DNA from: Escherichia coli
GTDB lineage: Bacteria; Pseudomonadota; Gammaproteobacteria; Enterobacterales; Enterobacteriaceae
DNA: 64,000 bases
Assembly (NCBI RefSeq): GCF_044324785.1
Contig: NZ_CP172128.1
Strand: one strand, 5' to 3'
Shown in pieces: positions 9,201 through 12,200 of the stretch; position 1 is the first letter of the stretch, and each line of letters begins with the position of its first letter. The position numbers were made by a program.

Positions 9201-12200
9201 GCGTGACTACATCAGTATCATGCCTAAACCAGACGGGTTAACGGCAGCAAAGAACCTTGCAGAGGCGTTCGAGCATTATAACGAATGGCATCCGCATAGT
9301 GCACTGGGTTATCGCTCGCCACGGGAATATCTACGGCAGCAAGCCAGTAATGGGTTAAGTGATAACAGGTGTCTGGAAATATAGGGGCAAATCCATTATT
9401 TTTTTGTATGCTCAGTTATTGATGGATAATAATATTAAATGAATCAGTAAGTTCCTTACTCTTTCCCTCTGCACAGGTGGTTTTTTATAAAATTCTTCGA
9501 AAGGTAATACCTGATATCCCGGAGGCATAGCAACGAAGGGGATACAGATTAAAGACATAACACGGATAAGTCACCAGGAGGAATTATGTCTTGGATGAAA
9601 CTGACGGAAGCAGAACGTAAGCGTATCAACGATGCTTATGCCGCACAGGCTGCACAGTTAAAGTTGTCCGGCAGGGATGAACTGCCACGGGAAGTTAAGA
9701 GAAAAGTGCGTGTAAAAGTTTTGAGAATGATTCGGGCAGAGCGCAAAGCGAGAACCGCAAAGGCTCAACGAACAAAAGCGTATCGTGCCGCAGAGAACAC
9801 GTTTACCTGGCAGCCGGCGCGACGCAGGTGAGCCGGCCAGCGGAAGAGCCTGTACATAGATTTGTGTAATTGCCTGATTTTGATATGTTCAATCCAGCAT
9901 CAAATGAAGGTTAATTTATGGACGAAAAACAGTTACAGGCTCTGGCTAACGAACTGGCCAAAAACCTCAAAACCCCTGAAGACCTCAGTCAGTTTGATCG
10001 GCTGCTGAAAAAGCTCAGCGTTGAAGCCGCTCTCAATGCAGAGATGACACACCATCTTGGGTATGAGAAAAATCAGTCCAGACCAGGAGCTAACTCCCGC
10101 AACGGTTATTACACAAAGACCGTTATCACAGGCGACGGTCCACTGGAACTGCGTACTCCGCGCGATCGTGACGGTACCTTCGAACCACAACTGGTAAAGA
10201 AAAATCAGACCCGTATTACCGGGATGGATAACCAGATCCTCTCGTTGTATGCCAAAGGGATGACCACCCGTGAGATAGCCGCTGCGTTCAAAGAACTGTA
10301 TGACGCAGATATTTCACCGGCACTGATATCAAAGGTTACCGATGCCGTGATGGAGCAGGTTGTATAATGGCAAAACCGACCACTGGATGCTGTTTACCCC
10401 ATTGTTTATCTTGACTGTATCGTCCTGAAAGTTCGGCAGGACAGTCGCATCATCAACAAATCGGTGTTCCTGGCACTGGGCATCAATATCGAAGGTCAGA
10501 AAGAACTGCTGGGTATGTGGCTGGCCGAAAATGAAGGGGCGAAGTTCTGGCTCAATGTGCTGACTGAACTGAAAAACCGCGGTCTGAACGATATCCTCAT
10601 CGCCTGTGTGGATGGCCTGAAAGGCTTCCCGGATGCCATCAACACAGTATATCCGAAGGCCCGCATCCAGTTATGCATCGTGCATATGGTGCGCAACAGC
10701 CTGCGCTTCGTGTCATGGAAGGACTACAAAGCCGTCACTCGCGACCTGAAAGCGATTTATCAGGCTCCCACGGAAGAGGCAGGTCAGCAGGCACTGGAAG
10801 CGTTCGCTGCGGCCTGGGACAGTCGCTATCCTCAGATAAGCCGAAGCTGGCAGGCTAACTGGCCGAATCTTGCCACGTTCTTCGCTTATCCAACGGACAT
10901 CCGCAAAGTGATCTATACGACGAATGCCATCGAGTCGCTAAACAGCGTGATCCGCCATGCGATCAAAAAGCGTAAAGTGTTCCCGACAGACGACTCGGTG
11001 AAAAAAGTGGTGTGGCTGGCAATCCAGTCTGCGTCCCAGAAATGGACGATGCCGTTGAAGGACTGGCGAATGGCAATGAGCCGCTTTATTATCGAGTTCG
11101 GTGACCGCCTGGACGGTCACTTCTGAGAAAGGCATTTACACAGAATCTTAAACAGGCTCAAGTGAAGCTAAGCACACAATCAATTCAGGTCTTTGACATC
11201 CTCCATCTTAACTTCCAAAGGGTACTCCCGCCGACATAAGGCGGGAGTACCCTTTGGAAGTTAAGATGGAAAACCGACATAAGAACCCTCTGTTATCCTG
11301 AAACTCTTATATTTATATAACTTGTGAAGGCGTTATGCACACAACCAATCTTCGCAAAGTCGGCGTCTCGTTGACATCCTCCACGCCCTGACGAATGTGG
11401 AGGAATGTCAATATTAATGTCCGGGCCACTCCTGTTGTTCAGTGACGTGATGTGATATTTCTTCTTTAGCTGTAGCCTCATTCTGGAGGTTTGAAGTAAA
11501 TATACGCTCCATTGTTTGTGCAACCGATGGTGGCATTTTTTCTTCCACACGTTCCTCTTCCGGACAACTCTGTGTGATATAGCATACGTGCCGTTCTTCC
11601 CGGGATGTGGTATTGATGATGTGAACTGCCTTGTTCCACAGGCTGTTTCCCCGGGCAGAGATATCTGTATCATATTGCGGAAGCAGATCCAGCGATGTTT
11701 GTGTTTCGTTAAGCTGCTTCTGGAAGGTATCGATGATACGGTAAGGCTCTGTACGGTTTTTACGACGTTTACGGGATGGTTTTGCTGTCAGTACACCAAT
11801 AATGCTGCTGACATGCTCCGGTGTGGGAAAACGGCGCTGCACTGTCCTGGGGACGAGACGGCGGAGACGCTCCAGGCGGGGGGCTTCAACGGAAATATAG
11901 CGGTTGATGACCACCGGATCACTGTCGCAACTTTTCTCGCTGTCCGGAATATACACAGAGGCTGACGGCACCACATCCCCCTGGAAAACGGTAAAGAACT
12001 CACCGGCATTCAGTCTGATCAAATCCTGCACGTCGATTTTGCTTTCCATCTGGATGGTGATCTGGTTACCGTCCACCCAGGACTCACCCATCACACCATC
12101 GTGGCGCTGCAGGCTGCCCATTCTGGCCCTAGCCTCTTCACCGGCGGCATTTTTCACCGTTCTTGCCGTTTTGTCGTCACTGACAATGCGTCCGGCGAAT

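What the first reader, a model, noticed from the sequence alone, without database searches (positions are those of the whole stretch)
11190..11410. 31-bp perfect inverted repeat flanked by repeated TTGACATCCTCCA motifs downstream of the coupling-protein gene
A hairpin with 31-bp perfect arms and a 7-nt loop (11202-11270) lies between the IS1414 right end and the 3' end of the coupling-protein gene. The motif TTGACATCCTCCA occurs at 11194 and 11368, and again inverted at 11391-11405 forming a short hairpin. There is no U-run, so this is not a simple terminator; it could be a protein-binding or recombination site, or a miniature repeat element.
Basis: seen in the sequence. Interest (0 to 1): 0.4.

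Follow-up and report, generated by a model that had tools for sequence, protein, structure and literature searches.

The report
Mirrored transposon-end scar beside trbC
The perfect hairpin and its flanking motifs are leftovers of IS200/IS605-type insertion sequences: two copies of one element's left end fused head-to-head where about 200 bases were lost, and no evidence of a role in plasmid transfer was found.

Summary
Arms of 31 nt (11202-11232 and 11240-11270) pair perfectly around a 7-nt loop. TTGACATCCTCCA is at 11193 and 11371, and the second copy is half of an imperfect hairpin (11371-11411) just past the trbC stop.

None of it is plasmid backbone.
- The palindrome is the first 41 nt of a 1,818-bp tnpA+tnpB insertion sequence ("ISx"), followed by the mirror image of its first 18 nt.
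- ISx inserts 3' of CCAT without a duplication. The 59-nt core lies exactly between CCAT on the + strand and CCAT on the - strand.
- The same mirrored left end occurs at four unrelated junctions. In two of them it replaces 200 or 166 nt that close relatives still carry.
- TTGACATCCTCC is the reverse complement of the IS609/ISx right-end tip.
- The short hairpin is a diverged mirrored IS609 right end. Perfect copies exist in P1-like phage-plasmids.

The most likely origin, which is inferred, is two oppositely oriented copies that collapsed by deletion across their terminal transposase-binding hairpins.

I found no terminator signature, and the closest relatives lack the palindrome, so a local function is unlikely. 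I found no description of this footprint. Interest is moderate to low.

The parts
11193..11206 (-). Tip of an IS609-type right end (TTGACATCCTCCAT is the reverse complement of ATGGAGGATGTCAA). It is all that remains here of a right-end relic that is longer in relatives. Its last four bases are the + strand CCAT target.
   Evidence: 12-13 nt are identical to the ISx right-end tip. In L002 and L017 the same position continues into 118 nt that are 95.8% identical to the right end of K-12 IS609 (E = 1.7e-52).
11203..11206 (+). CCAT, the target and left cleavage tetranucleotide of ISx, abutting the left arm.
   Evidence: Five independent full copies all follow CCAT. Empty sites in traC and in an IncI2 backbone show ...CCAT| with no duplication.
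11207..11247 (+). ISx left end, nt 1-41. It comprises an 18-nt linker CTTAACTTCCAAAGGGTA (guide-like GGTA at 11221-11224) and the subterminal hairpin CTCCCGCC (11225-11232), loop GACATAA (11233-11239) and GGCGGGAG (11240-11247).
   Evidence: 41 of 41 nt are identical to ISx nt 1-41.
11240..11265 (-). A second ISx left end, nt 1-26, in the opposite orientation. It shares the hairpin stem with the first copy.
   Evidence: 26 of 26 nt are identical to ISx nt 1-26 on the minus strand.
11266..11269 (-). CCAT target on the minus strand (ATGG on the + strand), abutting the right arm. It is present in relatives that lack the palindrome.
   Evidence: L002 and L017 read ...CAGTT ATGG AAAACCGACATAAG.
11371..11411 (.). 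Diverged mirrored IS609-type right end (RE'-RE palindrome): TTGACATCCTCCAC / GTGGAGGAATGTCAA around a 12-nt centre, 2 nt from the trbC stop.
   Evidence: 31 nt are 90% identical to the K-12 IS609 right end (E = 1.6e-5). About 88-90% identity to 40-nt mirrored copies in L022-L024 (two of which carry one substitution), where 37 of 41 positions is my own count against the consensus form.
11414..13687 (-). trbC, the IncI-type coupling-protein-like gene. It is context only and not part of the element.
   Evidence: ORF; annotated as trbC in H1 and related records; Pfam TraG-D_C hit.
2113..11159 (.). A 9-kb segment bounded by inverted IS1414-type (IS256-family) ends, inserted at the pemK stop codon with an 8-bp duplication AAGTGAAG (2105-2112 and 11160-11167). 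It is context only.
   Evidence: astA is predicted inside the IS in L001.

Best explanation
The 11190-11411 stretch is a graveyard of IS200/IS605-family (IS609-like) insertion-sequence ends, not a plasmid-encoded site.

The big palindrome is two left ends of one element, which I call ISx. ISx is 1,818 bp, has divergent tnpA and tnpB genes, and targets CCAT. The two left ends lie in opposite orientation and share a single transposase-binding hairpin. Each abuts its own CCAT target on its own strand.

The most likely history is as follows, and it is inferred rather than shown. ISx integrated twice about 200 nt apart, on opposite strands, with the left ends pointing outward. This could have been one copy hopping to the other strand nearby. 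Two 1.8-kb inverted repeats around a short spacer are unstable. They collapsed by a deletion between the 8-nt stem halves (GGCGGGAG) of the two terminal hairpins, because those stems are direct repeats between the inverted arms. The deletion removed both element bodies and the spacer and left the 59-nt mirror-image footprint.

The TTGACATCCTCCA motifs are right-end tips of IS609-type elements. The short hairpin beside trbC is the equivalent mirror footprint of two right ends.

What is shown: the sequence identities, the CCAT target rule, the replacement of 200 and 166 nt, the recurrence at four junctions, and the existence of inverted ISx pairs. What is inferred: the two-copy intermediate at these sites and the slippage or collapse step. 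The confidence given (0.6) is for the whole statement; I put the identity as insertion-sequence end DNA at about 0.95 and the two-copy collapse mechanism at about 0.5.
For: - **Identity of the arms.** The left arm, loop and stem are 41/41 identical to ISx nt 1-41, and the right arm is 26/26 identical to ISx nt 1-26 on the other strand.
- **ISx is a genuine IS200/IS605 element.** It encodes a Y1_Tnp transposase and a TnpB with OrfB_IS605 and Cas12f1-like_TNB domains. Full copies sit at five unrelated sites, each following CCAT. Empty sites prove insertion 3' of CCAT with no duplication.
- **Flank rule.** The 59-nt core is flanked by CCAT and ATGG at all four junctions where it occurs: the window, L007, L006 and L018. 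These tetranucleotides belong to the flanks, as L002, L017, L014, L015 and L016 show.
- **Replacement.** Relatives carry 200 nt (L002) or 166 nt (L014) between the same CCAT and ATGG. In L006 the two flanks come from different plasmid backbones.
- **Local origin.** Both arms of the Klebsiella palindromes carry the same T>C variant, which is found in the left end of a full copy in the K. pneumoniae ATCC 13883 chromosome. This implies at least two independent origins from a local element.
- **Inverted pairs exist.** An IncI2 plasmid carries two ISx copies in inverted orientation with left ends outward, about 7 kb apart, and with hicB split between them.
- **Parallel case at right ends.** A 40-nt mirrored IS609 right end, bounded by TCAA on both strands, occurs at different junctions in phage-plasmids. 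The window hairpin 11371-11411 is a diverged copy.
- **No local function.** The palindrome is absent from the nearest relatives with identical flanks, and there is no terminator signature.
Against: - No intermediate was found at any of the four sites, meaning a full ISx at either CCAT or an inverted pair with a short spacer.
- Two opposite-strand insertions within 166-200 nt, occurring more than once, is a demanding requirement.
- The natural ISx left end is already a quasi-palindrome (outer stem TCCAAA/TTTGGA), so a fold-back template switch within a single copy could also generate the right arm.
- ISx itself is absent from the 64-kb window.
- Only four junctions are known, and none turned up in representative genomes, viral contigs or JGI metagenomes.
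Confidence: 0.6

Rival explanations
1. Fold-back in a single copy. One ISx inserts at one CCAT. During replication the nascent strand folds at the left-end quasi-palindrome, copies its own left arm back through CCAT, and then rejoins the template at a downstream ATGG. This deletes the element body and the adjacent DNA.
For: The natural left end folds as an interrupted hairpin whose outer stem (TCCAAA/TTTGGA) is already in register with the perfect palindrome. Only 5 nt (GGGAA versus TACCC) and the distal 7 nt differ. It needs only one insertion per site.
Against: The return point is exactly 4 nt past the element tip at four out of four junctions, with no longer or shorter microhomology. My rough estimate is that the 1.8-kb element body should contain about seven ATGG sites closer than the one used. 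The mirrored right ends also stop exactly at the TCAA cleavage site on both strands. Microhomology alone does not predict either result.
Confidence: 0.2
2. A mobile double-left-end element. The palindrome is itself moved by ISx transposase supplied in trans. It is cut at CCAT| on both strands and pasted between two opposed CCAT sites, replacing what lay between them.
For: The same unit with defined ends lies at four unrelated junctions. Each end is a canonical integration junction (CCAT|CTTAAC). The arms stay perfectly symmetric, including the Klebsiella variant.
Against: IS200/IS605 transposition acts on one strand and needs a left and a right end on that strand (PMC5934647, read), and no right end is present. 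In the perfect hairpin the guide-like GGTA is base-paired. No replicon examined showed a second site. The two sequence variants track the local full-length element. It was absent from the genome, viral and metagenome scans.
Confidence: 0.1
3. A functional plasmid site. The hairpin is retained because it works locally, for example as a bidirectional transcription barrier or RNA-stabilising hairpin between the IS1414/pemK side and trbC, or as a protein-binding site for transfer.
For: The hairpin is very stable. It lies between convergent transcription units. It is 100% conserved in the 10 full-length matching IncK2/Z plasmids of the E. coli genome set, most from chicken (9 such records in PLSDB).
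Against: The closest relatives with the same pemK and trbC flanks have unrelated DNA there instead. There is no U-run or terminator-like site. The same palindrome sits in unrelated places, including inside a disrupted 74-aa gene and next to a truncated transposase-like reading frame (my reading of the flank). The conservation can be explained by recent common ancestry of these plasmids.
Confidence: 0.05

Closest known systems
Left end of IS200/IS605-family elements (model: IS608 of Helicobacter pylori)
   Same: A subterminal hairpin, a tetranucleotide 5' of the hairpin foot facing the cleavage site, an 18-nt linker (19 nt in IS608), and insertion 3' of a fixed tetranucleotide with no duplication. 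The ISx right end even has GAAT 5' of its hairpin and ends in TCAA, as IS608 does (PMC5934647 and PMC3597680).
   Different: Here two left ends face each other and share one hairpin. There is no right end and no transposase gene. The target is CCAT rather than TTAC.
IS609 of E. coli K-12 (annotated mobile element carrying insQ)
   Same: The TTGACATCCTCC motif is its right-end tip. The relic in relatives is 95.8% identical over 118 nt. The ISx tnpB gene is 96% identical to insQ over 647 nt.
   Different: The ISx left end, its tnpA side and most of its right-end hairpin differ from K-12 IS609, so the palindrome is not IS609 sequence.
PATEs (palindrome-associated transposable elements, the miniature IS200/IS605 derivatives)
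   Same: A short, gene-less derivative of IS200/IS605 ends (the term was only seen in papers listed).
   Different: From my own knowledge, not checked in the papers, PATEs keep a left and a right end on one strand and are multi-copy. This has two left ends (or two right ends), is single-copy, and sits at deletion junctions.
REP/BIME elements and their RAYT transposases
   Same: Pairs of inverted hairpin units related to IS200/IS605 subterminal hairpins (abstract of PMC3333891).
   Different: BIMEs are chromosomal and high-copy, with two separate hairpins and a linker. Here a single hairpin is shared, the copy number is low, and the copies are on plasmids only.
Collapse of long inverted repeats, and quasi-palindrome template switching, in E. 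coli (from my own knowledge, not tested here)
   Same: Deletion endpoints in short direct repeats near the base of a long palindrome, and imperfect palindromes made perfect.
   Different: The direct repeats here are supplied by the element's own transposase-binding hairpin, and the outer limits are set by the transposase target site.

Membership tests
IS200/IS605-family insertion sequence (autonomous element) | Encodes a Y1 (HUH) transposase TnpA, often with TnpB | tested here: not met
   Full ISx copies elsewhere encode Y1_Tnp and OrfB_IS605/TNB proteins. The window contains only 41 + 26 nt of ISx and no gene.
IS200/IS605-family insertion sequence (autonomous element) | Inserts 3' of a fixed tetra- or pentanucleotide without target duplication | tested here: met
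   Shown for ISx with two occupied/empty site pairs, target CCAT. Both arms of the palindrome abut CCAT.
IS200/IS605-family insertion sequence (autonomous element) | Distinct left and right ends, each with a subterminal hairpin, on the same strand | tested here: not met
   The palindrome has a left end on each strand and no right-end hairpin. The adjacent TTGACATCCTCC is only a 12-14-nt right-end tip.
PATE / MITE-like non-autonomous derivative | Left end plus right end retained, and several copies per genome | tested here: not met
   One copy in this window; listed records show two places, which I read as the palindrome matching both of its own strands. Only four junctions are known. No hits in genome, viral or metagenome scans.
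REP/BIME | High-copy chromosomal extragenic palindromes associated with a RAYT | tested here: not met
   Every full-length copy listed lies on a plasmid; the few chromosomal matches listed are partial left-end matches; no full table of the 15 full-length hits was seen.
Intrinsic (Rho-independent) terminator | GC-rich hairpin followed by a U-run | tested here: not met
   0 terminator-like sites in 10900-11700 on either strand.
Rfam RNA families (microRNA precursor models) | Score at or above the family gathering threshold | tested here: not met
   The best hit is mir-5984 at 52.4 bits against a threshold of 95. Eleven matches to nine different miRNA-precursor families cover the same hairpin on one or both strands, so the match is to hairpin shape only.
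Transposase (TnpA) substrate | Binding and cleavage by ISx TnpA at CCAT|C on single-stranded DNA | not testable with these tools
   This needs purified TnpA and oligonucleotides. The sequence elements are present, but GGTA is paired in the perfect hairpin.

The most novel reading that the evidence does not exclude
Mirror-image end palindromes, both left-left and right-right, are a general footprint of IS200/IS605 elements whose limits are set by the transposase. They would mark a previously unrecognised outcome of single-strand transposition: two integration-type joints on opposite strands that precisely remove the DNA between two opposed target sites. This could happen in one step, or through a mobile double-ended hairpin intermediate, rather than through two independent insertions plus a host-mediated deletion.
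Probability: 0.15. Interest if true: 0.6.

Novelty: new variant of a known kind. Interest (0 to 1): 0.35.

Why it matters
For this plasmid it removes a candidate. The trbC-proximal hairpin is not a transfer, partition or regulatory site, and annotation should call it an insertion-sequence remnant.

More generally, the same kind of footprint was found for two related elements, with limits that coincide exactly with transposase cleavage sites. That gives a recognisable signature of past IS200/IS605 activity and of precise loss of the DNA between two opposed target sites. I found no description of it in the literature I could search.

If the signature is general, it could be used to detect vanished tnpA/tnpB elements and the deletions they caused on plasmids and phage-plasmids. 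It is also a simple, testable case of how terminal hairpins shape the decay of these elements.

A 31-bp perfect palindrome is also a potential replication or SbcCD problem and a strong RNA hairpin, so it may have side effects. None was shown here.

Tried and rejected
- **Rfam.** Only sub-threshold microRNA-precursor hits to the hairpin shape, so these were rejected.
- **Promoter and terminator scan.** Nothing found.
- **Integron attC or other site-specific recombination site.** I considered this from the bulged short hairpin and dropped it once both hairpins matched insertion-sequence ends. I did not test it formally.
- **Reading-frame test across the traC insertion** to place the element boundary. 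It was inconclusive because that traC is frameshifted. Empty-site comparison replaced it.
- **Exact-pattern scans for the palindrome-specific junction GACATAAGGCGGGAGTACCC.** There were 0 hits in representative genomes, viral contigs and JGI metagenomes.
- **Search for a precursor**, meaning full ISx at either CCAT next to trbC or in the phage-plasmid context. None was found in PLSDB or in complete E. coli genomes.
- **Literature.** The arm sequence appears in no searchable paper. Searches for IS683, IS609 and PATE gave no description of such palindromes. I could not establish the registered name of ISx.
- **The 10-nt repeat CCGACATAAG** (hairpin loop and 11274). It predates the palindrome in L002 and L017 and lies at the annotated start of a restriction-enzyme gene in L017. 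I treat it as coincidence, with a rough chance of a few percent given the number of comparisons, though this is not fully explained.

Full report
**1. The observation**

The window reads TCTTTGACATCCTCCA TCTTAACTTCCAAAGGGTACTCCCGCC GACATAA GGCGGGAGTACCCTTTGGAAGTTAAGATGGA. The arms at 11202-11232 and 11240-11270 are 31 nt long and perfectly complementary, with a 7-nt loop. No arm-like sequence occurs in 100 shuffles of the window. The DNA fold is -39.1 kcal/mol with z = -12.45.

TTGACATCCTCCA is exact at 11193 and 11371. The second copy pairs with GTGGAGGAATGTCAA at 11397-11411, with one bulged A, to form a hairpin 2 nt from the trbC stop at 11414-11416 on the minus strand. Everything else is as described, and there is no terminator-like site.

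**2. Context**

The replicon is an IncK2/Z plasmid of the IncI complex, of a type common in chicken E. coli. Window 1-2112 is nikB-pemI-pemK. Positions 2113-11159 are a 9-kb segment bounded by inverted IS256-family (IS1414-type, carrying astA) ends. It is inserted at the pemK stop with an 8-bp duplication AAGTGAAG. The backbone resumes at 11160.

The finding therefore lies in the pemK-trbC spacer, 11168-11413. In the closest relatives with the same flanks, the palindrome is replaced by other DNA:
- pRM10042-1 (L002) has 200 nt between TTGACATCCTCCAT and ATGGAAAACCGACATAAG.
- pA16EC0070-1 (L017) has the same 200 nt, interrupted by a restriction-modification gene pair.

**3. What the palindrome is made of**

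Its left arm, loop and first 8 nt of the right arm recur in well over 100 plasmids. There they lie next to the 3' end of an IS200/IS605 tnpA gene that sits back-to-back with a tnpB gene. Pfam confirms Y1_Tnp for one protein, and OrfB_IS605 plus Cas12f1-like TNB for the other.

I examined five independent insertions: an IncI2 backbone, two other plasmids, F traC, and the SMS-3-5 chromosome. All share the same ends, and all are preceded by CCAT. Two empty sites, in traC of p1658/97 and in an IncI2 plasmid, read ...CCAT|.... The element, called ISx here, is therefore 1,818 bp and runs from CTTAAC to GGAGGATGTCAA. It inserts 3' of CCAT with no duplication, which is the rule for this family (PMC5934647).

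Its left end is CTTAACTTCCAAAG-GGTA-[CTCCCGCC GACATAA GGCGGGAG]-GGGAATTTGGA. The four bases 5' of the hairpin foot (GGTA) are complementary, position by position, to CCAT. This resembles AAAG facing TTAC in IS608, and I treat it as suggestive only.

Its right end has GAAT 5' of a hairpin and ends in TCAA, as in IS608.

Against this element, window 11207-11247 is 41/41 identical to nt 1-41, and 11265-11240 is 26/26 identical to nt 1-26 on the other strand. The palindrome is thus two ISx left ends, head to head, sharing one hairpin. Each abuts a CCAT on its own strand (11203-11206 on the + strand, 11266-11269 on the - strand). No other ISx sequence is in the window.

**4. The flanking motifs**

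GGAGGATGTCAA is the last 12 nt of ISx and also of K-12 IS609, which RefSeq annotates as a mobile element. TTGACATCCTCC is its reverse complement.

In L002 and L017 the first motif continues into 118 nt that are 95.8% identical to the IS609 right end and the 3' end of insQ (E = 1.7e-52). It is therefore a truncated IS609 in minus orientation, of which the window keeps only 14 nt. That relic happens to contain CCAT, the site used by the left arm.

The second motif belongs to a different structure. The sequence at 11371-11411 is about 88-90% identical to a 40-nt palindrome, TTGACATCCTCCACGCCCTGAAGGACGTGGAGGATGTCAA (37 of 41 positions by my own count). That palindrome is found in P1-like phage-plasmids at junctions with different flanks (L022/L024 and L023).

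It is an IS609 right end mirrored about its subterminal hairpin, and it stops exactly at TCAA on both strands. The natural IS609 right end is not palindromic out to the tip. The natural end occurs at 5,546 places in 4,325 of 5,426 complete E. coli genomes. The mirrored form is in 3 of those genomes, all on plasmids.

**5. Recurrence and what it replaces**

The mirrored left end occurs at four unrelated junctions.
- **The window family.** 10 full-length matches plus further records in which another insertion sequence interrupts the region; 200 nt are replaced relative to L002.
- **E. coli phage-plasmids such as pEC16-2 (L007).** Relatives such as L014 carry 166 nt between CCAT and ATGG, inside a 74-aa gene.
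- **K. pneumoniae pINF237_02 (L006).** The left flank runs up to the start-codon region (CCAT = ATGG reversed) of a ColE1-type entry-exclusion gene (L016). The right flank, from ATGG onward, matches a different plasmid backbone (L015).
- **A K. pneumoniae IncF plasmid (L018).** The left flank reads like the interior of an IS3-family transposase gene by my own translation; this was not checked against a family library.

In all four the 59-nt core sits between CCAT and ATGG, and complementarity does not extend beyond these apart from one chance base in the window.

The two Klebsiella copies carry T>C in one arm and the matching A>G in the other. A full ISx in the K. pneumoniae ATCC 13883 chromosome has exactly that left-end variant. 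In PLSDB that variant matched at 99% identity or more in only three records, all from Klebsiella, which I take to be the palindrome-bearing plasmids. The palindromes therefore arose at least twice, each from the local element.

**6. Mechanism**

Both outer joints (CCAT|CTTAAC on each strand) are canonical integration joints. The simplest reading is two integrations on opposite strands, left ends outward, followed by loss of everything between the two terminal hairpins.

Because a hairpin reads the same on both strands, the stems CTCCCGCC and GGCGGGAG are direct repeats between inverted copies. A deletion between the two GGCGGGAG copies gives exactly the observed sequence. Two 1.8-kb inverted repeats around a spacer of 200 nt or less form a long near-palindrome. 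From general knowledge, E. coli tolerates such structures poorly and resolves them by deletions near the base of the snap-back.

Right ends outward would give the mirrored right end by the same route.

An inverted ISx pair with left ends outward, 7 kb apart and with a split hicB gene, does exist on an IncI2 plasmid. This shows that both orientations occur on one replicon.

The intermediate at the four sites was not found, so this step remains an inference.

The main rival is a fold-back template switch in one copy. It is plausible because the natural left end is already a quasi-palindrome. However, it does not explain why the product ends exactly at the transposase site in every case. A self-mobile double-left-end element and a local function are less likely, for the reasons given under the rival explanations.

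**7. Comparison with known elements, and novelty**

By sequence this is IS200/IS605-family end DNA. It fails the tests for an autonomous element, for a PATE or MITE, for REP/BIME, for a terminator, and for any Rfam family (see the membership table). The arm sequence is in no searchable paper, and the literature searches returned no description of mirrored ends.

I rate it as a new variant of a known kind: a recognisable decay footprint of these elements. It is ordinary in origin, mildly informative for transposon biology, and not a plasmid function.

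Noticed in passing
window 2105-11167: A 9,047-bp segment (2113-11159) bounded by inverted IS1414-type (IS256-family) ends sits at the pemK stop codon with an 8-bp duplication AAGTGAAG. It looks like a composite transposon. The transposase reading frame of the right-hand copy is split (9918-10367 and 10464-11126).
   Followed up: partly
window 11169-11205 and 11334-11383: The DNA outside the two right-end tips is also similar (GCACACAAyCAAT, at 5 versus 18 nt from TCkTTGACATCCTCCA). The two relics therefore seem related by a segmental duplication that included flanking DNA, not by two independent insertions. 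In L017 a restriction-modification gene pair lies between them.
   Followed up: partly
window 11231-11240 and 11274-11283: The 10-nt CCGACATAAG occurs both in the hairpin loop region and 5 nt beyond the right-hand ATGG. The second copy predates the palindrome (it is present in L002 and L017) and overlaps the annotated start of a restriction-enzyme gene in L017. It is probably coincidence, but this is not fully explained.
   Followed up: partly
L005 3056-4282 versus L019 5162-6909: The ISx tnpB gene is 96% identical to K-12 IS609 insQ over 647 nt, and the last 12 nt of both elements are the same. The left end, the tnpA side and most of the right-end hairpin are unrelated, so ISx looks like a mosaic of IS609 with another element.
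   Followed up: partly
L006 2490-2570; L018 2495-2570; also window 11253-11269: Read outward, the left-end tip is GGAGGTTAAG|ATGG (GGAAGTTAAG in E. coli). That is a Shine-Dalgarno-like motif 6 nt before an ATG supplied by the CCAT target. In L006 this ATG is the start-codon region of the entry-exclusion gene. Insertions at CCAT could therefore create or replace a translation start for the flanking gene.
   Followed up: no
L021 (NZ_CP024142.1 1500-13200): Two ISx copies lie in inverted orientation about 7 kb apart, with the two halves of hicB next to different copies. This indicates an inversion by recombination between the copies.
   Followed up: partly
L024 1546-2940: Immediately after the mirrored IS609 right end lies a third, different tnpB-only element with its own hairpin ends (ending ...GGGCGGGGAGCAGTCACAA). 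The tail-fibre/holin junction of these P1-like phage-plasmids seems to be a hot spot for such elements.
   Followed up: no
window 11198-11274: Rfam microRNA-precursor models (mir-5984 and eight other families) score 30-52 bits on both strands of the palindrome, purely because of its long perfect stem. This is a reminder that such models can pick up bacterial palindromes.
   Followed up: yes
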